Position numbers and translations under genes: made by a program
Sequence record: OZ346160.1
DNA length: 51,691 nt
Source of the DNA: a phage
Reading direction: 5' to 3' (one strand)
The notes under the pieces: generated by a model
Database searches by the model: none
Seen by the model: only the letters and a program-made list of their open reading frames with translations
Told to the model about the DNA's origin: nothing
Shown here: piece after piece, positions 6,396 to 43,590 of the stretch
Layout of the letters: each line of letters opens with the position of its first letter
How positions within the stretch are numbered: the stretch's first letter is position 1

Positions 6396-6414
6396 TTTAA
6401 CAAAAAGTGCTATC
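6396..6414 (+). promoter_or_regulatory. conserved motif, inverted orientation, embedded in sigma70-like promoter upstream of major capsid gene
   Basis: TTTAACAAAAAGTGCTAT lies between TTGACG (6388..6393) and TATCAT (6410..6415), 16-nt spacer. Confidence 0.45.
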
Positions 6415-10145: not shown

Positions 10146-10164
10146 TTTAACAAAAAGTGCTATA
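10146..10164 (+). promoter_or_regulatory. conserved motif, inverted orientation, upstream of tail chaperone/tape measure operon
   Basis: TTTTAACAAAAAGTGCTAT immediately followed by AAGGAG RBS and ATG 10178. Confidence 0.45.
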
Positions 10165-21051: not shown

Positions 21052-21083
21052 AAAAAAAGGGGCTTTTGCCCCTTTGTTTTTAT
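21052..21083. terminator. bidirectional terminator between convergent tail and lipoprotein genes
   Basis: A-run, GGGGC-tttt-GCCCC, T-run. Confidence 0.6.
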
Positions 21084-21311
21084 TTAAAGACTGCAATCAG
21101 CGTTTTTAAAGTTATCAATGCTTACCCACTGAAAATTAAATGGATAGCCAGCCTTAACAAGAGTGCGATCGCCAACTCGTTTTGCCCCAAAGATAGCAAC
21201 TGAATACTGCATTCCGCTATTTTCATAAATAGCCGTGCATTCACGTTTAGGCATATTTGCGCAACCAGTCAGCGCAACGGCTGCGATTAAAACGGCAATT
21301 AACTTTTTCAT
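21084..21311 (-). CDS. small lipoprotein, Cor-like superinfection exclusion candidate
   Basis: 75 aa; signal peptide with lipobox LTGC; convergent with tail genes, as for cor genes that follow tail fibre genes in T1/phi80-type phages; assignment by position and lipoprotein character only. Confidence 0.5.
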   Translation of the reverse strand: MKKLIAVLIAAVALTGCANMPKRECTAIYENSGMQYSVAIFGAKRVGDRTLVKAGYPFNFQWVSIDNFKNADCSL

Positions 21312-21340
21312 CTTTTCATCTCCTTTGTTGTTGTTGGTTC

Positions 21341-21385
21341 AACTATACACGATTTTAAGGCGCGCGTTTAGCAAAAAGTGCTACT
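21341..21385 (-). promoter_or_regulatory. cassette copy upstream of Cor-like lipoprotein gene
   Basis: Reverse-complement reads AGTAGCACTTTTTGCTAAACG followed by TATAGT about 39 nt downstream. Confidence 0.45.
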
Positions 21386-21489
21386 TGTTATTTTTTGTTT
21401 TCCGGTGTTATCGGATTTAAGACGGCGTAAATTTAGCGCAAATTTTAGCCAACATAAGAACAATAAATAATCAATAAAATAGATATATA

Positions 21490-21700
21490 CATATAAAATC
21501 AATAGTTTATTTATTTATGTATGTATATTTGTTTTTTCTTGTTGTCTGTGTTTCTTGTGGTTTTGGTTGTTTGTGGTGATTTTTCTTTCTGAGTATCTGT
21601 ATGTGCCATCATTCATGTGTATGTATATAATCCGGCGTATCTGAGAGAACAAGGGAACAAGAAAAATAACACATATTAATCATTGACTTACGTTTCAAAT
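21490..21700. repeat. AT/TG-rich regulatory region, paralogue A
   Basis: Shares TTATTTATTTAT(G)TATGTAT, T/G-rich TTGTNGT tracts and GGGAACAAGAAAAA with 42500..42770. Confidence 0.5.
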
Positions 21701-21753
21701 TTGTTTTCTTGCAATCTAAGAACGTTTAGAAAACAGAAAAAACAAAACAACTA

Positions 21754-21781
21754 TTGACTAAATCAACCAAATGGCTACAAT
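21754..21781 (+). promoter_or_regulatory. sigma70 promoter (recombination operon)
   Basis: TTGACT (21754..21759) - 16 nt - TACAAT (21776..21781); AAGGAG RBS and ATG 21812 follow. Confidence 0.6.
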
Positions 21782-21811
21782 GCACACACAAAGCAACAAG
21801 GAGCATCAAAG

Positions 21812-22867
21812 ATGAGTGATTTTAACGCCTACACTAGCGAAGAAATGAGCAATGAGCTTTATCATGATCCTAACGCGTGGACGGCTGAATACGTCAGCGG
21901 TTCCAGCTTGGCGGAGATTTACAGCACTTGCCCGGCGTACTGGAAGTACAAGCCTCGCCAGGAAACTAAGGCACTTGTTTTCGGTACGCAGTCGCATACC
22001 AATTTTGAAAGCAAGGAGTTATTCGAAAAAACATATCGCCGCGCACCGTCGCAGGATGACTTTAAAGATCTGATCGCAAGCCAAACGGCGTTGGCTTCAA
22101 AGCTGAAATCTTTTGGCCTGAAAGGCACGACGGGTAAGCAGTATCCAGAATTGCTGGAAATGCTGTACAAGTGCGGTGAGGATCTCAATGTATGGTGGCT
22201 TATCGAAATGATGGCAGAATGCCAGGCCGCAGCGGACGGAGTGCAGTTAATCGACGCGAAAGACTATGATGCCTGTGTAGCGATGCGGCGCGTACTTGAG
22301 GCAATACCTGAGCATAATGCTTGCATGAATAGCCCAACCGCGCAGCGTGAAATGTCAATATTCGGGATCATCAATGGCGTAAAAGTTAAAGTGCGTCTTG
22401 ATCACGTTGACGTAAACAAGGATGTAAAGGCCACAATCATTAACGGTTACGACGAAAAAGGCCGACCGATTTATGAAGAAGTCATCTATCCAGAAGCTGT
22501 GATTATCACTGACTATAAAACAACGGTTAGCGCAAATCCGGTTGACTTCCAGCGCCTGGCTTACAATCACGGCTATTATCTCAAAATGGCTTTGCAGCAT
22601 GATTTATTTAAAAAGGCGTATCCAGACGAGGAAAGGCCAGTAATTGTGAGATTGCTTGCTCAAGAGAAGAAAGAGCCTTACTTGCCGCTCGCATTCCGCA
22701 TGAACATTGAGCAATTGAAGATCGGGCGTATCCAGTACATGAGCGTGATCAACAAGTTCAACGTTTGCCAACAGTTAGATGAATGGCCTTCGTATGCAAA
22801 CGGGCAACCAGAAATTGATCTTGATACTCCTGATTGGGTGCGCGCTCAATTCAGGCAGTATCTGTGA
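21812..22867 (+). CDS. recombination exonuclease (PD-(D/E)xK, RecE/YqaJ-like)
   Basis: 351 aa; D-x-K nuclease motif VIITDYKTT; first gene after consensus sigma70 promoter; followed by annealing protein and SSB. Confidence 0.55.
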   Translation: MSDFNAYTSEEMSNELYHDPNAWTAEYVSGSSLAEIYSTCPAYWKYKPRQETKALVFGTQSHTNFESKELFEKTYRRAPSQDDFKDLIASQTALASKLKSFGLKGTTGKQYPELLEMLYKCGEDLNVWWLIEMMAECQAAADGVQLIDAKDYDACVAMRRVLEAIPEHNACMNSPTAQREMSIFGIINGVKVKVRLDHVDVNKDVKATIINGYDEKGRPIYEEVIYPEAVIITDYKTTVSANPVDFQRLAYNHGYYLKMALQHDLFKKAYPDEERPVIVRLLAQEKKEPYLPLAFRMNIEQLKIGRIQYMSVINKFNVCQQLDEWPSYANGQPEIDLDTPDWVRAQFRQYL

Positions 22868-22942
22868 CAAACTAAACAAATAGCTAAACTTTTATAATGG
22901 TTGGTGATATAATTCGCCAACCAGATAACGGGAGAATGAGAG

Positions 22943-23200
22943 ATGACAGATAAAGACAATGCCACATTATTGCATTTAGAACGATTCATTGATCGAGTAA
23001 CCATTGCAATGAAAGAATTTATTAAGCCGATGAACATTAAAGAGTCGGAAGAAATGAAGACTTACATCAAGGACGTGGTTGCATCCATTGACAACGTTAT
23101 CCTTGTTGCAACGATGAGCAAGGGAAACAAAGAGCGCGAGAGGTTGGTTGCTGAATCAACAGAAGAATTTATTAAAATGCTTGAAAGCGAGAAGGAATAA
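22943..23200 (+). CDS. hypothetical protein
   Basis: 85-aa ORF between exonuclease and Erf-like gene. Confidence 0.45.
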   Translation: MTDKDNATLLHLERFIDRVTIAMKEFIKPMNIKESEEMKTYIKDVVASIDNVILVATMSKGNKERERLVAESTEEFIKMLESEKE

Positions 23201-23857
<657 letters not shown>

Positions 23858-23860
23858 TAA

Positions 23861-23884
23861 ACGGGGCGCTTGCGCCCCTTTTGT
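23861..23884 (+). terminator. rho-independent terminator between Erf-like gene and ssb
   Basis: GGGGCGC-tt-GCGCCCC followed by TTTT. Confidence 0.55.
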
Positions 23885-23900
23885 CATAGGAGAAAACAAA

Positions 23901-24353
23901 ATGCACGTTATTACAGGTGAGATCAGAAAAGAGCCAAAAGTAAAGCAAATGCCTAACGGCAGCACGCTATATGTTGTTGAGCTTTCCGAGCGATACAAAG
24001 ACAGAGAAGGAAATTGGCAGTATACAAACTATGTGTTTTTCTTTAACGCGAAAACAGATGGCCTGAATGGTTGGTATGCTGAGGCGTTCCAGGTTGGTAA
24101 GGTTATTTCTGTTTCCTGCGATACCTTGCGGGTTGAAACGCGAGAATACAACGGAAAGATTTACAGCACCGTGCAGCCTGGCGGATTTGCAAACTTGCTA
24201 TTTAGCCAGCGAGGTGAAAGCCAGCAACAATATCAGCAGCGAACGCAAGGAGGCTGGGGGCAACCACAACAGCAACAGCAACAAAACCATCAACAGCAAC
24301 CACAGCAAAGCAATCAGCCTCCGATTGACTTTGACGACGACATACCCTTCTAA
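23901..24353 (+). CDS. ssb: single-stranded DNA-binding protein
   Basis: Start MHVITGEIRKEPK with GGAG RBS; OB-fold-like N-terminus, Gln/Gly/Pro-rich linker, acidic C-terminal tip DFDDDIPF typical of SSB. Confidence 0.8.
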   Translation: MHVITGEIRKEPKVKQMPNGSTLYVVELSERYKDREGNWQYTNYVFFFNAKTDGLNGWYAEAFQVGKVISVSCDTLRVETREYNGKIYSTVQPGGFANLLFSQRGESQQQYQQRTQGGWGQPQQQQQQNHQQQPQQSNQPPIDFDDDIPF

Positions 24354-26611: not shown

Positions 26612-26646
26612 AAATAGCACTTTTTGCTAATGACAATTCAGATAAT
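26612..26646 (+). promoter_or_regulatory. conserved motif copy adjacent to tail fibre start (inverted relative to that gene)
   Basis: AATAGCACTTTTTGCTAATGAC then GATAAT; on - strand the motif abuts AGGAGG RBS of the tail fibre gene. Confidence 0.4.
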
Positions 26647-27687: not shown

Positions 27688-28164
27688 TTAGCTATTCGTG
27701 CTGTTATCACCTTTGTAGAATCGTCCGCCTGGTTCGTAGTCTGAATTTTTGACTACGCGCAACATTTCGTATTTGTCGCAACGGGTAGTAAGAGGCTTGC
27801 CGTTAGAATCAAACCGCAGATCTGGACGACAAAACGAGGCGCGGTATCCTTTGCATCCATTATATTTGTAGTCGTTATGCACCTTTTGTGCTCCAGCGGC
27901 TGAAATCATACCACGCTTTCGCCACTGGTTAACGACTTGCTGAGATACGCGCAGACGTCGAGCCATAGCAGGAACACCGCCGTAATACTCGATCAGAATG
28001 TCAAGGCGAGATTTTAGGCTTGCTTTTACCTCATCTCGCAGGATAAGAAATCCGGTTCGGTGTTTTCGTGGCTTTTTGTCTTTACCTCGTCGCGTTCCGT
28101 TGTTACCGTTAATAGTGCGCTTGTCGATCTCACCCGTAGATACTGCAATTCGTGCATCTTTCAT
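27688..28164 (-). CDS. HTH DNA-binding protein (putative transcriptional regulator)
   Basis: 158 aa; HTH-like segment GGVPAMARRLRVSQQVVNQWRKRG; basic N-terminus; divergent from helicase gene. Confidence 0.45.
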   Translation of the reverse strand: MKDARIAVSTGEIDKRTINGNNGTRRGKDKKPRKHRTGFLILRDEVKASLKSRLDILIEYYGGVPAMARRLRVSQQVVNQWRKRGMISAAGAQKVHNDYKYNGCKGYRASFCRPDLRFDSNGKPLTTRCDKYEMLRVVKNSDYEPGGRFYKGDNSTNS

Positions 28165-28174
28165 CTAGTCACCT

Positions 28175-28219
28175 CATAGCATTTTTTGTTAAAACAGTTT
28201 ATTGTAATGAGTCTATTAT
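28175..28219 (+). promoter_or_regulatory. cassette copy upstream of helicase
   Basis: CATAGCATTTTTTGTTAAAAC; TATTAT at motif positions 40-45. Confidence 0.5.
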
Positions 28220-28251
28220 ATACTCCAAATGGCATTTTTTAAAGGTTTAAG

Positions 28252-30249: not shown

Positions 30250-30668
30250 TGGCTATAACTGATAAAGGAGATTATCTTGAGTTTTACGAAAGGGATCCAA
30301 CCGACACGAGAAGGGAAGTTAATCACCAGATAGATAGTTTTCAGTGGTTGACTTATGCTCATCCTTATTTGCTGGCGTGGCATACGGTAAACGAGAATGA
30401 GAAGTCTAAAGCAACGGCGATGATTGATCAGCAGTCCGGCTTGGTTAAGGGAGTAAGCGATTTCATCATCCTGATTGGTTTAAACGGAAAATACCCCTTT
30501 GCAGCGATTGAGATCAAACGAGTGAATAAATCAGGCAAGGGGAAAGCATCACCAGTCAGCGATGAACAAAAGGCTTTTTTGCGTCGCGTTCGCAGCTTAG
30601 GAGGATTCGCTGCGGTAGCCTACGGATTCAATCAGTTTAAGTTGGCTATTGAATACATGCTTAAATAG
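30249..30668 (+). CDS. VRR-NUC family nuclease
   Basis: 139 aa; PD-(D/E)xK signature GVSDFIIL..AIEIKR; start overlaps helicase stop (TAATG). Confidence 0.55.
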   Translation: MAITDKGDYLEFYERDPTDTRREVNHQIDSFQWLTYAHPYLLAWHTVNENEKSKATAMIDQQSGLVKGVSDFIILIGLNGKYPFAAIEIKRVNKSGKGKASPVSDEQKAFLRRVRSLGGFAAVAYGFNQFKLAIEYMLK

Positions 30669-30708
30669 CACTTTTTGTTAAAACTGGCGCGATGGATTGC
30701 GCCATAAT
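30664..30708 (+). promoter_or_regulatory. cassette copy upstream of Dam methylase
   Basis: AATAGCACTTTTTGTTAAAAC overlapping upstream stop TAG; hairpin GGCGC..GCGCC; CATAAT at 30703..30708. Confidence 0.55.
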
Positions 30709-35113: not shown

Positions 35114-35509
35114 TCATGTGATATTGAATTTACGGCGCAGTGCTTCAAGATCTTGTCTATTAGCTTTTGCCTGGAACAATTCATCATCGCCCATCTCCCC
35201 TATTCTCGCCATATCCCTGATCCAGTCGTTGCGCATACCATCCAGGCTATACAATTCGAATCCGAAAGGCCGCTTTGACGATCCTTTGGACCAGTATTTT
35301 CCGCAGACCCCATCTATATAACCAGCCGTCATCATTCTTGCGCAAAATTCCTTAGATGCAAGGCTGGCGAACATTCGCGGCGTAAGTCCGGCGGCCCGTG
35401 CGAGCCGCTCGCATTCTCTATGCTGATAGATAAATTTGGCTATGTGCTGCCTGTTAAACCAGTCGTATGACTCACACCATTTATACAGATCAAGCAAAAA
35501 CATAATCAT
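35114..35509 (-). CDS. hypothetical protein
   Basis: 131 aa, translationally coupled (ATGA) to upstream NTPase gene. Confidence 0.45.
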   Translation of the reverse strand: MIMFLLDLYKWCESYDWFNRQHIAKFIYQHRECERLARAAGLTPRMFASLASKEFCARMMTAGYIDGVCGKYWSKGSSKRPFGFELYSLDGMRNDWIRDMARIGEMGDDELFQAKANRQDLEALRRKFNIT

Positions 35510-37086
35510 CCCAGCAGTATTGGATTGACAAAAATAACACCATTAATAACACAAACATAATTTCTTTCTTCCAGCATTGGCAGCAAGTGCCCTTCTATCC
35601 TCTTCATTACTCCAGCCTGACCAACGAAAGGTTTTACCTTTCTCGCTGATTCGTACAGGGCGCGGATATTCAGAATCCCTTTATTAGCCTTGCCGTGTCT
35701 AGTGATCAATTCAATCAATTTACCCATTTCAGCATCATCACCAGCATAACCAGAAGCATTGGCGGCGCTAATGTATGTTTTGCTCAATTCCTGAAACATG
35801 ATCAGCGCCTCTTGCATTGTTTCCACGTCGATCTCTTTCGACTTCTGCGGGTATCCGGCAGGATTAAACCAGTTGCGGATAACATGCAGGACGGAAGCAA
35901 GCCTGATCACCTGTTTATCCATTTTACCCAGCGCACCGCGTAACATTGTATGAGAATACTTTCCGCCGTCTGCAAGATGCGGTTCCATATCCTGGCGAGC
36001 AATGTTGAGCACTCGCATAGCTGAACGGCTTATTTTCAGCGATATATTTGATTCGCTCATGATGTTATGCACCAATTGATAATATTGGGCCTTCAATTCA
36101 GGATCCACTGCCTCATAGGTAGAATCACCATTTTCATCAATGAATGAGCGACGGCCTAAGAATGATTCCTCACGGACCAACAAAAAGCGCTCACTCACAC
36201 CGATACCGCGCGATCCAGCGTCCATGATTCCGCTTATCGTTTCATCCTGGGCTATAACGCTCATACATCCAAGTGCGCGAAAACTCATGTTATTGTCAGC
36301 ATTAGCACGGGCAATTGATACGTGACCATTATCCCACGCCTTAAGCACTAGCTCACTGTTAGTCTTCCTTTCGCTATTGGCATAGGTCAAGCCTAACAGA
36401 CTGTTAATACTTGTTGCTTCGTCAGATATTACGGCAAAGTTACCTTGCTTGTTGTTGATTTTTGCCAAGCCTTCTGGAGTTGTATCTGAAACAGGGAAAG
36501 TTATATCACACATCTTTTCCAGCTTCTCCTCCAGATCCTCTTTTTCCTGGTATAGAGATTCCATATCAGCGCCTGATCTTTCGCTTTTCATCTCCTTTGC
36601 AAGACCTGCCAACTTTGCCTGTATTTTCTTTCTTTCCTTGCGGCGTTGCTCGTTGATCTTCTCAACTTCCGCAATCATCGGAGCAATAGCCATACTATTG
36701 ATCGCAGATTTACCAGTTGACGGCGGCTGGCTTGTAACGACGTAAAGCGCAGTCGGCTGATCGGTCCCGTGATAGTCAACCGTAAAGCGTCCAAGCATAG
36801 CGGCAGAAATGCAGCCGATAAAGTGCATGTAAGCCGATGATTCAGGGAATTGAACGGATCGCGCAATACTTCGTGATAACTTTCCGACAACATCAATATC
36901 ATTACCAAGAGAAATGACGGGGTAGCGATCGTGACCGCTATTTACATCCTTTACGTCGCCCCAAAAGCTGGACGACTGGCGATAGCCGTTAGCCTGAATT
37001 GATACGCGAACTGGCGAAAGGTTCTGGCTTTCAGCCATAGCGATTATTTGCTGTGGAGTTAATTTGTTCGTTTCTAATGAAAACAT
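35506..37086 (-). CDS. P-loop NTPase of unknown function (DUF3987-like)
   Basis: 526 aa; Walker A-like QPPSTGKS; AGGAG RBS; own cassette upstream. Confidence 0.55.
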   Translation of the reverse strand: MFSLETNKLTPQQIIAMAESQNLSPVRVSIQANGYRQSSSFWGDVKDVNSGHDRYPVISLGNDIDVVGKLSRSIARSVQFPESSAYMHFIGCISAAMLGRFTVDYHGTDQPTALYVVTSQPPSTGKSAINSMAIAPMIAEVEKINEQRRKERKKIQAKLAGLAKEMKSERSGADMESLYQEKEDLEEKLEKMCDITFPVSDTTPEGLAKINNKQGNFAVISDEATSINSLLGLTYANSERKTNSELVLKAWDNGHVSIARANADNNMSFRALGCMSVIAQDETISGIMDAGSRGIGVSERFLLVREESFLGRRSFIDENGDSTYEAVDPELKAQYYQLVHNIMSESNISLKISRSAMRVLNIARQDMEPHLADGGKYSHTMLRGALGKMDKQVIRLASVLHVIRNWFNPAGYPQKSKEIDVETMQEALIMFQELSKTYISAANASGYAGDDAEMGKLIELITRHGKANKGILNIRALYESARKVKPFVGQAGVMKRIEGHLLPMLEERNYVCVINGVIFVNPILLG

Positions 37087-37788: not shown

Positions 37789-37833
37789 ATTATGCCAGGT
37801 TTTTACACCTGGCTTTTAACAAAAAGTGCTATT
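37789..37833 (-). promoter_or_regulatory. cassette copy
   Basis: Consensus motif overlapping methyltransferase stop; hairpin CCAGG..CCTGG; CATAAT at 40-45. Confidence 0.55.
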
Positions 37834-41834: not shown

Positions 41835-42136
41835 TATTGTTTTGCGTGGCGCTCAATGTAAGCGCGGATAGTTTCAGCGGTGTCTTTCGCAGATCCAAAC
41901 GTGCCCTTTACATGGCGAGCGTCGCGGTAAGCCTGGAAGAATTTACGCGCGATATTTGCAAACATTGCACCAGTAACGCGAGCGTCGCCAAAATTTGTTT
42001 CAATGGCATTGCTGATGCCGTCCTGGAATTCATGCTCAGTCATGAACAGTTCAGCCATTTCTGCGGTTTCGAACAGGTCAGCCAGTGCTGCCATATTCTC
42101 GTGGTCTTTAGCGGTGAACAGGTTCATGTTAATCAT
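41834..42136 (-). CDS. hypothetical protein
   Basis: 100-aa ORF; first gene of - strand array, downstream of cassette 42177..42221. Confidence 0.5.
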   Translation of the reverse strand: MINMNLFTAKDHENMAALADLFETAEMAELFMTEHEFQDGISNAIETNFGDARVTGAMFANIARKFFQAYRDARHVKGTFGSAKDTAETIRAYIERHAKQ

Positions 42137-42176
42137 TGTTTGGTCCTCAGTAAGTGCGGTTCGTTTCGATGTGTGT

Positions 42177-42221
42177 AATGTACCCGATCAGGTGGCCTGA
42201 GTTTTAACAAAAAGTGCTATT
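42177..42221 (-). promoter_or_regulatory. cassette copy (first of - strand array)
   Basis: Consensus motif; TACATT at 40-45. Confidence 0.5.
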
Positions 42222-42251
42222 TGACGGTTATCGCCAGGATTGCGATCGAAA

Positions 42252-42339
42252 TAATCAAAAGCAATCATTCGTAATCAAATCACGTCAAAATGATGATTGC
42301 CTTTGCAAATTTGATGAGAAAAGTAATCACGCTTAATCA
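42252..42339. repeat. TAATCA iteron array with 10-bp periodicity
   Basis: TAATCA/CAATCA at 42252, 42262, 42272, inverted TGATTG at 42294, TAATCA at 42324 and 42334. Confidence 0.45.
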
Positions 42340-42499
42340 TTGGTTGCAGGGGAGATAGTGAAACCCTCCCCTCTTGCCTCACTTTTCCGCCTGGCTGTCA
42401 GTGGTTGTTATGTTACGTTCCCGCGTGTTCTTTTGTTGACCTTCCGCAAAATACGATAACAAAAAATAACAAACAATACCTATATAATACATTGAAAAA

Positions 42500-42770
42500 T
42501 AAGGATTATTTATTTATATGTATCTATATATTCTCTTTTGTTATCTTGGTTATTGTGGTATTTGGTGGGGGTATATAGTTTTTGTGTATCTATATGTGTG
42601 TATGGGTATGTAGGGGCATATATATCTATATGGCACTTTCCGCGAGAAAACTTCGATAACAAGCAATGATAACATTGATTTATAAGGAAAAATAACGCCC
42701 ATATTGTTATTGTGCCACCATATAAAATTGATAAAACACGCGGGAACAAGAAAAAACAGTTGACACATTA
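42500..42770. repeat. AT/TG-rich regulatory region, paralogue B
   Basis: Diverged direct repeat of 21490..21700; internal direct repeat TTCCGC..GATAACAA (about 42450..42680). Confidence 0.5.
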
Positions 42771-42788
42771 AATAGCATTATTGATAAT
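42760..42788 (+). promoter_or_regulatory. sigma70 promoter (start of + strand small-gene array)
   Basis: TTGACA (42760..42765) - 17 nt - GATAAT (42783..42788); AGGAGG RBS and ATG 42817 follow. Confidence 0.6.
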
Positions 42789-42816
42789 GCCCACACCTAA
42801 CAACCAGGAGGAAGAA

Positions 42817-43281
42817 ATGAGCGAGCAATCATTCACTGACACGCTGCGCCGTGCCGCTATTATGCTGGCTAATGGCGAGGAAGAGACGATCAAGATTCCT
42901 GACGCGTATTTGCAGGTCCACATGTTCGGCAAGAAGTCGGCAAGCAATCCGGCGGCCTACATTCGCCAGATCATGAGTCGAGTGCCAGAAGTCGCCGAGC
43001 GGGGGCGCGTATCCGTTACCCGTGGCGTTTACGGGCCGGAAGATGAAAACTTCGGTAGCACTTTCTACGAGGTAAGGATTGTTGAAGGCCGTCGCAAGGT
43101 TTACAACAAAGAGGCACTGGAAAGGGCAGTACGCCAGGCTAAGCGCAAGGTTGCAGAGGCGATCATTGATATGTCACCCAACCTGGCAAACTATGCGCCG
43201 GAAGAGTATGAAACATTATCAAAGGCCGTCGCTGACTTTCACGCGATGATCAAAAAAACTTTCCTGGAGGATGAGCAATGA
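42817..43281 (+). CDS. hypothetical protein
   Basis: Start MSEQSF with AGGAGG RBS; first gene after consensus sigma70 promoter. Confidence 0.5.
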   Translation: MSEQSFTDTLRRAAIMLANGEEETIKIPDAYLQVHMFGKKSASNPAAYIRQIMSRVPEVAERGRVSVTRGVYGPEDENFGSTFYEVRIVEGRRKVYNKEALERAVRQAKRKVAEAIIDMSPNLANYAPEEYETLSKAVADFHAMIKKTFLEDEQ

Positions 43282-43550
43282 AAAAGGCGTTAATCGGCGT
43301 TTTGGCGGCAATGGCATTCCTGACCGGATGCAAAGAAGATGGCGCGCATGTTGGCAATGTGCAGATGGCTAACCCTGGCGATGACTACAGCGTAAGGGAG
43401 CTATTCACCGCCGATGGTTGCACTGTTTACCGATTCTATGACGGTCGCACTGTTTACTTCACCAACTGCAAGGGCACTACTAGCTGGGAAGTGTCGAAAA
43501 GCAATGGCAAAGGCACGAAGACAGAACATATGACCGTCGAGACAAAATAG
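43278..43550 (+). CDS. small lipoprotein
   Basis: 90 aa; signal peptide with lipobox FLTGC; coupled (ATGA) to upstream gene. Confidence 0.55.
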   Translation: MKKALIGVLAAMAFLTGCKEDGAHVGNVQMANPGDDYSVRELFTADGCTVYRFYDGRTVYFTNCKGTTSWEVSKSNGKGTKTEHMTVETK

Positions 43551-43590
43551 CACTTTTTGTTAAAACGCCAGGCGCAAAGCCTGGCATAAT
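43546..43590 (+). promoter_or_regulatory. cassette copy
   Basis: Consensus motif overlapping stop; perfect hairpin GCCAGGC-gcaaa-GCCTGGC; CATAAT 43585..43590. Confidence 0.55.

What the first reader, a model, noticed from the sequence alone, without database searches (positions are those of the whole stretch)
21490..21790. Two paralogous AT/TG-rich non-coding regions, each ending in a near-consensus sigma70 promoter
Regions about 21490..21790 and 42480..42790 share diverged blocks (TTATTTATTTATGTATGTAT..., T/G-rich tracts, GTATCT(G/A)TATGTG, GGGAACAAGAAAAA). Both end in strong promoters (TTGACT-16-TACAAT; TTGACA-17-GATAAT) driving the recombination operon and the + strand small-gene array. 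These are the only long gene-free stretches in the genome and are candidates for immediate-early promoters or replication origins.
Basis: seen in the sequence. Interest (0 to 1): 0.6.

Follow-up and report, generated by a model that had tools for sequence, protein, structure and literature searches.

The report
Paired origin-like modules in T1-like phage
The two long non-coding gaps of this T1-like coliphage are diverged copies of one compound element, and each looks like a replication origin placed next to a strong early promoter, which gives testable candidates for the still-unmapped replication origins of the T1 phage family.

Summary
Window 21450-21605 and 42447-42598 align far better than composition allows: score 80, against 23±3 for global shuffles and about 30±6 for local-composition shuffles. 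Both stated sigma70 promoters exist and are conserved, and they match promoters P51 and P01 already predicted in silico for phage TLS.

The window is a Warwickvirus (Drexlerviridae) genome. Each region lies between divergent transcription units and has the same anatomy:
- a leftward promoter of the published 21-nt "DR" type
- a ~25-bp element rich in TGTT/AACA boxes
- an A-rich to T/G-rich core
- the same ~25-bp element inverted
- the rightward sigma70 promoter.

The two cores are the two least stable duplex stretches of the genome. The same holds in T1, TLS, haarsle and Rtp. The A/B pair is similar within every genome tested (z = 4-35), which indicates concerted evolution.

Best reading: each region combines an early promoter with an origin-like module. 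This rests on anatomy only; nothing has been tested experimentally. Region B also lies next to the pac region.

The parts
21367..21383 (-). Copy of the published 21-nt direct repeat (core TAGCACTTTTTGCTAAA). With TATAGT 20 nt downstream, it forms the leftward promoter-like unit for cor (21084..21311).
   Evidence: TLS paper
21384..21412 (+). Left ~25-bp box-rich element of region A (cTTGTTATTTTTTGTTTTCCGGTGTTATC). Its TGTT boxes sit at 21386, 21396 and 21406, with 10-bp phasing.
   Evidence: conserved block in alignment A2
21450..21605 (.). Paralogous core of region A. It has an A-rich arm (21450-21505), a centre near 21506, and a T/G-rich tract (21506-21605). It contains the least stable 60-bp duplex of the genome, which starts at 21462.
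21642..21674 (-). Right box-rich element of region A, an inverted copy of the left one. It includes GAGAACA, GGGAACAAGAAAAA and AATAACA.
21754..21781 (+). Sigma70 promoter TTGACT-16-TACAAT, with an A-tract upstream, driving recE-erf-ssb (21812..24353). It is the homolog of TLS P51.
42203..42219 (-). DR repeat copy (TAGCACTTTTTGTTAAA). With TACATT 20 nt downstream, it forms the leftward promoter-like unit for the minus-strand operon that runs from 42136 down to about 35114 and includes the DUF3987 helicase.
42240..42345 (.). ATCA/TGAT-repeat stretch, present only in region B. It is the positional equivalent of the place where the T1, TLS, Rtp and haarsle records are opened; in TLS the mapped pac cut lies there. 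It adjoins the paralogous block but is not part of it.
   Evidence: the placement in the window is an inference from homology
42404..42432 (+). Left box-rich element of region B (gTTGTTATGTTACGTTCCCGCGTGTTCTT).
   Evidence: (I1)
42447..42598 (.). Paralogous core of region B. It has an A-rich arm, a centre near 42505, and a T/G-rich tract. It contains the second least stable 60-bp duplex of the genome, which starts at 42480.
42636..42677 (+). Composite CCGCGAGAAAAC-TTCGATAACAAGCAATGATAACA. It is the equivalent of the conserved CCGGCGTAAAT-nn-GTGAACA-nn-GGAACA block to the right of the core in region A of relatives, and of the corresponding block in TLS region B.
42732..42760 (-). Right box-rich element of region B, an inverted copy of the left one. 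It shares an exact 13-nt GTTCCCGCGTGTT arm with the left element and includes GGGAACAAGAAAAA.
42760..42788 (+). Sigma70 promoter TTGACA-17-GATAAT, driving the plus-strand small-gene array that starts at 42817. It is the homolog of TLS P01.
35506..37086 (-). Candidate trans factor: a DUF3987, MCM-like (SF6) helicase with a C-terminal winged helix at residues 449-519.
   Evidence: PMC4889955
26703..27710 (-). P4-alpha-type primase (zinc ribbon plus TOPRIM region). BLASTP E = 5e-15 to P4 alpha residues 20-263.
27688..28164 (-). Cro/YdaS-like HTH protein encoded just upstream of the primase. It is the alternative candidate for binding the boxes.

Best explanation
Each region is a compound control element that lies between divergently transcribed units. 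At its right end is a strong host-sigma70 early promoter. At its left end is a DR-type promoter. Between them lies an origin-like module.

The module is a very AT-rich core that melts easily, flanked by two inverted copies of a ~25-bp element. Each copy carries 2-3 short TGTT/AACA boxes about one helical turn apart.

Proposed mechanism (inferred, not shown):
1. The phage's MCM-like DUF3987 helicase binds the flanking boxes through its C-terminal winged helix, as SaPI Rep self-loading helicases do.
2. Divergent early transcription adds negative supercoiling between the two promoters.
3. The core opens, and two helicase rings load in opposite directions.
4. The P4-alpha-type primase starts synthesis.

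Outward from the centre, one strand is T/G-only and the other A/C-only. Neither strand can fold on itself once unwound, which would keep both open for the helicase, SSB and primase.

The two copies would act either as two origins or as an origin plus an auxiliary cis site. They are kept alike within each genome because they must fit the same protein.
For: Shown:
- The A/B similarity is real. It is present within every genome tested: window z = 8, T1 7.1, TLS 10.2, haarsle 4.4, and Rtp score 141, z = 35.
- In T1, A resembles B (score 66) more than either resembles its orthologs in other lineages (31-44). This indicates concerted evolution.
- The two cores are the first and second least stable 60-bp duplex windows in all five genomes, about 5 sd from the mean and well separated from third place.
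- Four copies of a ~25-bp element are arranged + ... core ... - in both regions. The profile built from them finds no other copy in the window.
- The boxes are among the most conserved non-promoter columns across genera and show about 10-bp phasing.
- Lineage-specific boxes concentrate in the two regions, which make up about 2.4% of each genome: T1 TGTAACA 6/6 and GTGTAACA 4/4; haarsle AGATAACA 4/5; TLS GTGAACA 4/8.
- The literature describes SaPI Rep origins as short iterons on both sides of an AT-rich centre in opposite orientation, read by a C-terminal winged helix (PMC9371898). It classes DUF3987 proteins as replicative SF6 helicases with a winged helix (PMC4889955).
- A distant phage whose helicase is 36% identical has, at the head of the helicase operon, a 130-bp AT core flanked by 9 copies of ACACGCCCACG in both orientations.
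- Both strands of the T/G tracts are structure-free: MFE of 0 to -1.2 kcal/mol per 80 nt, against -3.4 to -8.7 for controls.
- The origin of T1-like phages is reported as not found.
Against: - There is no experimental evidence of any kind: no marker frequency, binding or transcription-start data (searches found none).
- In the window itself the boxes are short and degenerate (GATAACA 5/19, GGGAACA 2/3). Each flank inverted repeat is only modestly significant on its own (p of 0.002-0.05).
- AT-rich composition inflates the k-mer enrichment.
- The binder is unidentified. The helicase winged helix and the Cro-like HTH both co-vary with box type, but this only follows phylogeny.
- The helicase shows no sequence similarity to P4 alpha or to any PDB chain.
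- Unlike SaPI origins, these modules are not next to the helicase gene.
- The T/G tract is weak in the T1 group (0.68), so it is not a universal requirement.
- AT-rich, box-flanked DNA upstream of strong promoters is equally what a regulatory region looks like.
Confidence: 0.55

Rival explanations
1. The regions are purely transcriptional control regions. The AT-rich core and the flanking boxes are upstream regulatory DNA for the two main immediate-early promoters and the divergent DR promoters: operators for the phage Cro/YdaS-like HTH protein, and/or curved DNA bound by host H-NS, Fis or IHF. The two copies stay alike because they respond to the same regulator.
For: - Both regions end in conserved consensus sigma70 promoters, which are two of only three in TLS.
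- Both are divergent promoter regions.
- The phage encodes an HTH regulator whose recognition helix differs between lineages that have different boxes.
- The distance from core to promoter is similar in A and B, about 250 bp.
- One IHF consensus lies at the centre of region A.
Against: - The third sigma70 promoter region (28165-28251) has no such module, and in T1 the specific boxes are absent from it (TGTAACA 6/6 lie in A and B).
- The conserved block lies 100-330 bp upstream of the promoters, far beyond UP-element range.
- The IHF match is not enriched: 5 observed, 4.3 expected.
- Extreme duplex instability, and T/G against A/C strand segregation that leaves both strands structure-free, have no obvious role in regulation.
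- A distant relative shows a textbook iteron-plus-AT-core layout.
Confidence: 0.25
2. The regions are packaging or recombination elements. The paralogous block belongs to the pac site or to terminase recognition, or it is a recombination hotspot and module junction for the RecE/Erf system.
For: - The T1, TLS, Rtp and haarsle records are all opened inside the region B homolog.
- In other Warwickviruses the similarity to region B stops inside the T/G tract and a different allele follows.
- Region A sits next to recE and erf.
Against: - The pac position lies about 200 bp to the left of the AT core, in a TGAT/GATC-repeat stretch that region A lacks. The part shared by A and B is therefore not the pac part.
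- Region A is colinear and conserved across genera, with no mosaic break.
- A junction role does not explain the inverted box elements or the conserved duplex instability.
Confidence: 0.08
3. The regions encode non-coding RNA genes or small proteins.
For: - They are long, conserved stretches with no long ORFs.
- Some depositors annotate tiny ORFs of 29-72 aa there.
- ORFs of 72-79 aa exist on the minus strand of region B.
Against: - Rfam finds nothing at gathering thresholds, and nothing meaningful at E <= 1.
- The tracts have essentially zero folding energy, and the hairpin potential of the core is weak (z of -0.9 to -2.6).
- No promoter reads into the core.
- The T/G tract keeps its composition but not its sequence.
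- The ORFs translate to low-complexity sequence and are broken by indels in FritzSarasin.
Confidence: 0.03

Closest known systems
SaPI/PICI Rep origins, with self-loading SF3/SF6 helicase-initiators (SaPIbov1 Rep, SaPI1 Rep, SaPI5 PriRep); also SCCmec Cch
   Same: - The initiator-helicase has a C-terminal winged helix.
- Short repeats lie on both sides of a central AT-rich region and point in opposite directions.
- A separate or fused primase is present.
- The anatomy is as described in PMC9371898.
   Different: - The host element here is a virulent siphophage, not a satellite.
- There are two copies per genome.
- The modules lie 5-7 kb and about 14 kb from the helicase gene, not directly downstream of it.
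- The boxes are degenerate and embedded in a ~25-bp element.
- There is an extra T/G-rich tract.
- Each module is flanked by divergent promoters.
- Binding has not been shown.
Satellite phage P4 ori plus crr, bound by the alpha protein
   Same: - Two separate cis regions carry the same short repeats in both orientations with 10-11-bp phasing (P4 record).
- The primase is homologous to the alpha primase domain (E = 5e-15).
- In several relatives the box reads GTGAACA/TGTTCAC, which is 7 of the 8 bases of the P4 type 1 repeat TGTTCACC.
   Different: - The helicase is MCM-like and a separate protein, with no similarity to alpha.
- The window's own boxes are GATAACA and GGGAACA, and none of its 7 GTGAACA copies lies in the two regions.
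- P4 crr is a tandem 120-bp duplication without an AT-rich core of this kind.
Predicted sigma70 promoters P01 and P51 and the 21-nt direct repeats of phage TLS (PMC11447400)
   Same: The two promoters of this finding are the homologs of TLS P01 and P51. The leftward units carry the published repeat aaATAGCACnnnTTGnTAAAA.
   Different: The TLS paper did not describe the paralogy of the two regions, the AT-rich cores or the flanking inverted elements. It states that no origin-like repeats were found.
Bacillus phage SPP1 oriL and oriR: two related origins bound by G38P (from my own knowledge, not checked here)
   Same: One phage genome carries two related origin regions far apart, each with repeated boxes next to an AT-rich stretch.
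   Different: The initiator family is different (a replisome organiser plus a DnaB-type helicase).

Membership tests
SaPI-type Rep origin (self-loading helicase origin) | The element encodes an AAA+ (SF3 or SF6) helicase-initiator with a C-terminal winged-helix domain | tested here: met
SaPI-type Rep origin (self-loading helicase origin) | A central AT-rich region with at least two short iterons on each side, in opposite orientations | tested here: met
   The cores are the two least stable duplexes of the genome. TGTT boxes lie at 21386, 21396 and 21406 (-), against AACA boxes at 21645, 21653 and 21665 (+). Inverted ~25-bp elements are present in both regions. Caveat: the boxes are degenerate in the window. 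They are clearer in T1 and in L055.
SaPI-type Rep origin (self-loading helicase origin) | The origin lies immediately downstream of the rep gene | tested here: not met
   The helicase gene is at 35506..37086. Region B is about 5 kb away, at the head of the same operon, and region A is about 14 kb away.
SaPI-type Rep origin (self-loading helicase origin) | The helicase binds and melts its cognate origin, and the origin supports replication | not testable with these tools
   This needs EMSA or footprinting, and plasmid-amplification or marker-frequency experiments.
P4 ori/crr system | An alpha-type DnaG-like primase | tested here: met
   BLASTP E = 5e-15 over 253 aa to P4 alpha residues 20-263. 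Zn_Ribbon_Prim domain.
P4 ori/crr system | An SF3 (D5-type) helicase and origin-binding domain of alpha | tested here: not met
   No similarity between the window's helicase and P4 alpha. No PDB sequence hit. The fold is MCM-like.
P4 ori/crr system | TGTTCACC type 1 repeats shared by two separate cis regions | tested here: not met
   Two regions that share repeats do exist. However, none of the window's 7 GTGAACA copies lies in them; its boxes are GATAACA and GGGAACA. The relatives TLS and FritzSarasin do carry GTGAACA or TGTTCACC there.
Host sigma70 early promoter | Near-consensus -35 and -10 hexamers with a 16-18-nt spacer, conserved in relatives, and correctly placed before a gene with an RBS | tested here: met
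   10/12 and 11/12 matches. TTGAC and TAnAAT are invariant in 14 relatives. They are the homologs of TLS P51 and P01. The RBS and ATG lie 18-30 nt downstream.
Host sigma70 early promoter | Transcripts start there early in infection | not testable with these tools
   No transcription-start data for T1-like phages were found.
pac site (headful packaging start) | Coincides with the mapped packaging cut or terminase recognition repeats | tested here: not met
   The mapped TLS pac lies at record coordinate ~1, in TGAT/GATC repeats about 200 bp to the left of the AT core. The window's equivalent (42240-42345) lies outside the paralogous block and is absent from region A.
Known RNA family (Rfam) | A match to a covariance model | tested here: not met
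   No hits at gathering thresholds. At E <= 1 there are only two chance snoRNA-model hits.

The most novel reading that the evidence does not exclude
T1-like phages (Drexlerviridae) initiate replication at a coupled pair of origins that serve a phage-encoded MCM-like self-loading helicase. The pair would be either two origins or an origin plus a crr-like partner site. It is kept matched within each genome by concerted evolution. The T/G against A/C strand-segregated tract next to the melting core would be a purpose-built zone where neither single strand can fold, used for helicase loading and first priming. The excess of C followed by T in the tract could mark primase start sites.
Probability: 0.3. 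Interest if true: 0.65.

Novelty: new member of a known kind. Interest (0 to 1): 0.5.

Why it matters
T1 is one of the classical T phages, yet its replication origin has never been located. The 2024 re-annotation of TLS states explicitly that no origin-like repeats were found.

If these paired modules are the origins, that question becomes directly testable with simple experiments: marker frequency, origin-plasmid amplification and helicase footprinting. It would also extend the paradigm of a self-loading MCM-like helicase with iterons around an AT-rich centre from staphylococcal satellites to a large family of virulent enterobacterial phages. These phages matter as fermentation contaminants and as therapy candidates.

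The result also clarifies genome layout for annotators. The two gaps are regulatory and replicative DNA, not places to call tiny ORFs. The promoter part is already known from in-silico work on TLS.

Tried and rejected
- GC skew as an origin locator. It simply follows gene orientation, so it is uninformative.
- IHF site at the centre of region A. There is one consensus hit, but it is not enriched genome-wide: 5 observed, 4.3 expected.
- Cruciform or hairpin formed by the A-rich and T-rich arms. The self-complementarity is real (score 55-59), but it is not clearly above block shuffles (null maximum 60-67) and is energetically weak (z of -0.9 to -2.6).
- P4-alpha-like origin-binding domain. No sequence similarity.
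- Co-variation of box sequence with the helicase winged helix or with the Cro-like HTH. Both follow phylogeny, so this does not discriminate between them.
- Strictly lineage-specific boxes. This idea is weakened by FritzSarasin, whose region B carries GTGAACA, GTTAACA and TGTTCACC, while its region A is about 96% identical to the window's.
- Anchoring region B homologs on the flanking genes. The genes are too variable, and only 1-2 loci were found.
- Promoters inside the core. None reaches the scan threshold. The perfect TATAAT at 42483 has no -35 hexamer or TG extension.
- Literature on T1-like transcription start sites or origins. None was found in the library.
- Greedy ORF tiling to list gaps. 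It produced artefacts: it picked spurious ORFs at 41837..42178 and 42510..42749. The gap claim therefore rests on the ORF list and on relatives' annotation.

Full report
**What the window is.** Both regions match T1-like coliphages at 95-98% identity. The closest is atuna, and the NorthRox record places them in Drexlerviridae, Tempevirinae, Warwickvirus. The window is a whole genome that starts at terL, and terS runs to its end.

Region A (21312-21811) lies between cor on the minus strand (21084..21311) and recE on the plus strand (21812..). Region B (42137-42816) lies between a minus-strand operon of small genes, which runs down to the DUF3987 helicase gene, and the plus-strand array of small early genes. 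Both are therefore divergent promoter regions.

**Checking the observation.** The best A/B local alignment is 21450-21605 against 42447-42598. It scores 80, against 22.8±2.6 for dinucleotide shuffles and about 30±6 (maximum 60) for shuffles that keep composition in 10-30-nt blocks. The similarity is therefore not a composition effect.

All quoted motifs and both promoters are present as described. A (500 bp) and B (680 bp) are the only gene-free stretches longer than about 200 bp. The tiny ORFs some depositors call there are low-complexity and are not conserved. The cores rank first and second in the genome for AT content and for T+G strand bias.

**What is already known.** The 2024 re-annotation of TLS (PMC11447400) lists only three intergenic sigma70-like promoters:
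- P01, before the first early gene, which is the region B homolog
- P51, before recE, which is the region A homolog
- P57, for the regulator-primase operon.

It also lists 18-21 copies of a 21-nt direct repeat, aaATAGCACnnnTTGnTAAAA, whose function the authors call an open question. They state that no origin-like repeats were found.

I found the same repeat 22 times in the window where 0.5 would be expected. One copy faces left in each region (21367-21383 and 42203-42219), and each is followed 20 nt later by a -10-like hexamer. Across 14 relatives whose region A is on average 63% identical, TTGAC and TAnAAT are invariant.

**Anatomy of the shared module.** Both regions read, from left to right:
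1. a DR unit facing left
2. in region B only, a stretch of ATCA/TGAT repeats and a GGGGAG/CTCCCC hairpin
3. a ~25-bp element, TGTTAT-TTTT-TTG-TTCC-CG-GTGTT
4. an A-rich arm
5. a centre
6. a T/G-rich tract
7. the same ~25-bp element inverted
8. the sigma70 promoter.

The four copies of the element are the only hits of a profile built from them in the whole window. The profile also finds the orthologous elements in haarsle and FritzSarasin. Inside the elements, TGTT/AACA boxes recur about every 10 bp: 21386/21396/21406 and 42732/42742/42752. In the cross-genus alignment these blocks are, with the promoter, the most conserved columns. The T/G tract keeps its composition but not its sequence.

**A family-wide physical property.** By nearest-neighbour free energy, the two cores are the first and second least stable 60-bp duplexes in the window: -56.8 and -59.3 kcal/mol, against -65.6 for third place and a genome mean of -81.9 with sd 5.0. 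The same holds in T1, TLS and haarsle and in Rtp. These five genomes span three subfamilies.

Both strands of the T/G tracts are essentially unable to fold: 0 to -1.2 kcal/mol per 80 nt, against -3.4 to -8.7 for ordinary 80-mers.

**Concerted evolution.** A and B are significantly similar within each genome: window z = 8, T1 7.1, TLS 10.2, haarsle 4.4. In Rtp they share a 123-bp block at about 80% identity (score 141, z = 35). In T1, A and B resemble each other (score 66) more than either resembles its orthologs in other lineages (31-44).

The short boxes differ by lineage and are concentrated in the two regions:

| Genome | Box | Copies in the two regions / genome total |
|---|---|---|
| T1 | TGTAACA | 6/6 |
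| T1 | GTGTAACA | 4/4 |
| haarsle | AGATAACA | 4/5 |
| TLS | GTGAACA | 4/8 |
| window | GATAACA | 5/19 |
| window | GGGAACA | 2/3 |

This pattern is what two sites reading the same trans-acting protein would show. The boxes are degenerate, though. FritzSarasin's region B has GTGAACA, GTTAACA and TGTTCACC, while its region A is like the window's.

**Candidate proteins.**
- A P4-alpha-type primase: zinc ribbon, and E = 5e-15 to alpha residues 20-263.
- A Cro/YdaS-like HTH protein encoded just upstream of the primase.
- A DUF3987 helicase.

**Comparison with known systems.** SaPI Rep proteins are self-loading helicases. Their C-terminal winged helix reads 5-6-nt iterons. The origin has an AT-rich centre with at least two iterons on each side, pointing in opposite directions, and the SaPIbov1 type is MCM-like (PMC9371898). 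That is the layout seen here.

P4 supplies a second analogy. Its record shows TGTTCACC repeats with 10-11-bp phasing, in both orientations, in two separate cis regions: ori and crr. Some relatives of the window carry GTGAACA or TGTTCACC boxes. The window's own boxes differ, however, and the helicase is unrelated to alpha, so membership in the P4 system fails.

A distant phage whose helicase is 36% identical has, at the head of the operon containing that helicase, a 130-bp AT core that is its least stable duplex. The core is flanked by 9 copies of ACACGCCCACG in both orientations. This is a clear iteron-plus-unwinding-element origin layout, and it travels with the same replication module.

**The pac rival.** The reference records of T1, TLS, Rtp and haarsle are all cut inside the region B homolog. 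[quoted passage not shown] That point lies in TGAT/GATC repeats about 200 bp to the left of the AT core. The window's equivalent (about 42240-42345) is absent from region A. So pac adjoins the shared module in region B but is not part of it.

**Other rivals.** Rfam finds nothing. No promoter reads into the cores. GC skew only mirrors gene strand.

A purely regulatory reading remains the main rival. It explains promoter proximity and a shared regulator. It does not explain the extreme duplex instability, the structure-free strands, the absence of the module at the third sigma70 promoter, or the L055 architecture.

**Verdict.** The promoter part is already known. The origin part is a new and testable proposal for a phage family whose origin is unmapped. 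It belongs to a known kind: an origin with iterons around an AT-rich centre, served by a helicase-initiator with a winged helix. Everything about function is inferred from anatomy and comparison.

Noticed in passing
window, 22 sites, e.g. 30666-30682(+), 43548-43564(+), 37815-37831(-), 42203-42219(-): The published 21-nt direct repeat of T1-like phages (core TAGCACTTTTTGYTAAA) occurs 22 times where 0.5 would be expected. In about 16-17 copies a -10-like hexamer (cATAAT, TATAGT or TACATT) lies exactly 20 nt downstream. In about 9 copies the spacer is a GC-rich perfect palindrome whose sequence differs from site to site. TTGTTA sits about 5 nt too far upstream to serve as a -35 hexamer, so these look like activator- or UP-element-dependent promoters. 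The TLS paper lists their function as an open question.
   Followed up: partly
window 6396-6412(-), 10146-10162(-), 26615-26631(+): Three copies of the direct repeat point against the local direction of the genes. This does not fit a simple reading in which there is one promoter per gene.
   Followed up: no
window 42240-42375: A stretch of ATCA/TGAT repeats is followed by a GGGGAG...CTCCCC hairpin (42349-42375). This is the positional equivalent of the place where the T1, TLS, Rtp and haarsle records start and where TLS pac was mapped, so it is probably the pac region of this phage.
   Followed up: partly
window 42430-42816 vs L054 (FritzSarasin): Within one genus, the left 290 bp of region B are about 97% identical and the AT core is conserved. 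From the T/G tract rightwards, including the first early genes, a different allele is present. Many relatives match only query 20-432 (window 42156-42568). The module is therefore a mosaic junction.
   Followed up: partly
L055 2159-2540 (JGI metagenome contig Ga0617948_0001043): A distant phage whose DUF3987 helicase is 36% identical has a 130-bp (TA)n/AT-rich core flanked by 9 copies of ACACGCCCACG in both orientations, inside a 555-bp divergent gap. This is a very clear origin-like architecture.
   Followed up: partly
window 21521-21600 and 42516-42600; region A homologs in L004-L043: In the T/G tracts, nearly every C is followed by T. By eye this is 12 of 12 in the window. Across 19 distinct relatives it is 81 of 102, where 59 would be expected. 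These could be primase start sites, or simply the recurring GTATCT and TTTCTT words. The sequences are related, so the counts are not independent.
   Followed up: partly
phage database records MG0656xx ('Campylobacter phage' E6, A139, A118 and others): About 18 records labelled as Campylobacter jejuni phages match this coliphage's non-coding region A at about 75% identity over 94% of its length. They are about 47-50 kb, like T1-like phages. The label is probably wrong, or the sequences are contaminants.
   Followed up: no
window 21056-21075: A perfect 8-bp stem (AAAGGGGC/GCCCCTTT) with T-runs on both strands lies between the end of the plus-strand tail genes and the end of cor. It looks like a bidirectional intrinsic terminator.
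   Followed up: no
window 28165-28251: This is the third divergent gap, 87 bp, between the HTH-primase operon and the DEAD-box helicase gene. It is the third most AT-rich 100-nt window in the genome. It carries a direct-repeat copy (28177-28193, +) and corresponds to TLS P57, but it has no A/B-type core or box elements.
   Followed up: partly
L001 1270-1600 and L002 1176-1669 (NorthRox annotation): Three tiny CDSs are annotated inside each of regions A and B: 29-44 aa in A, and 35, 37 and 72 aa in B. They are low-complexity and not conserved, so they are probably over-calls by the gene finder.
   Followed up: partly
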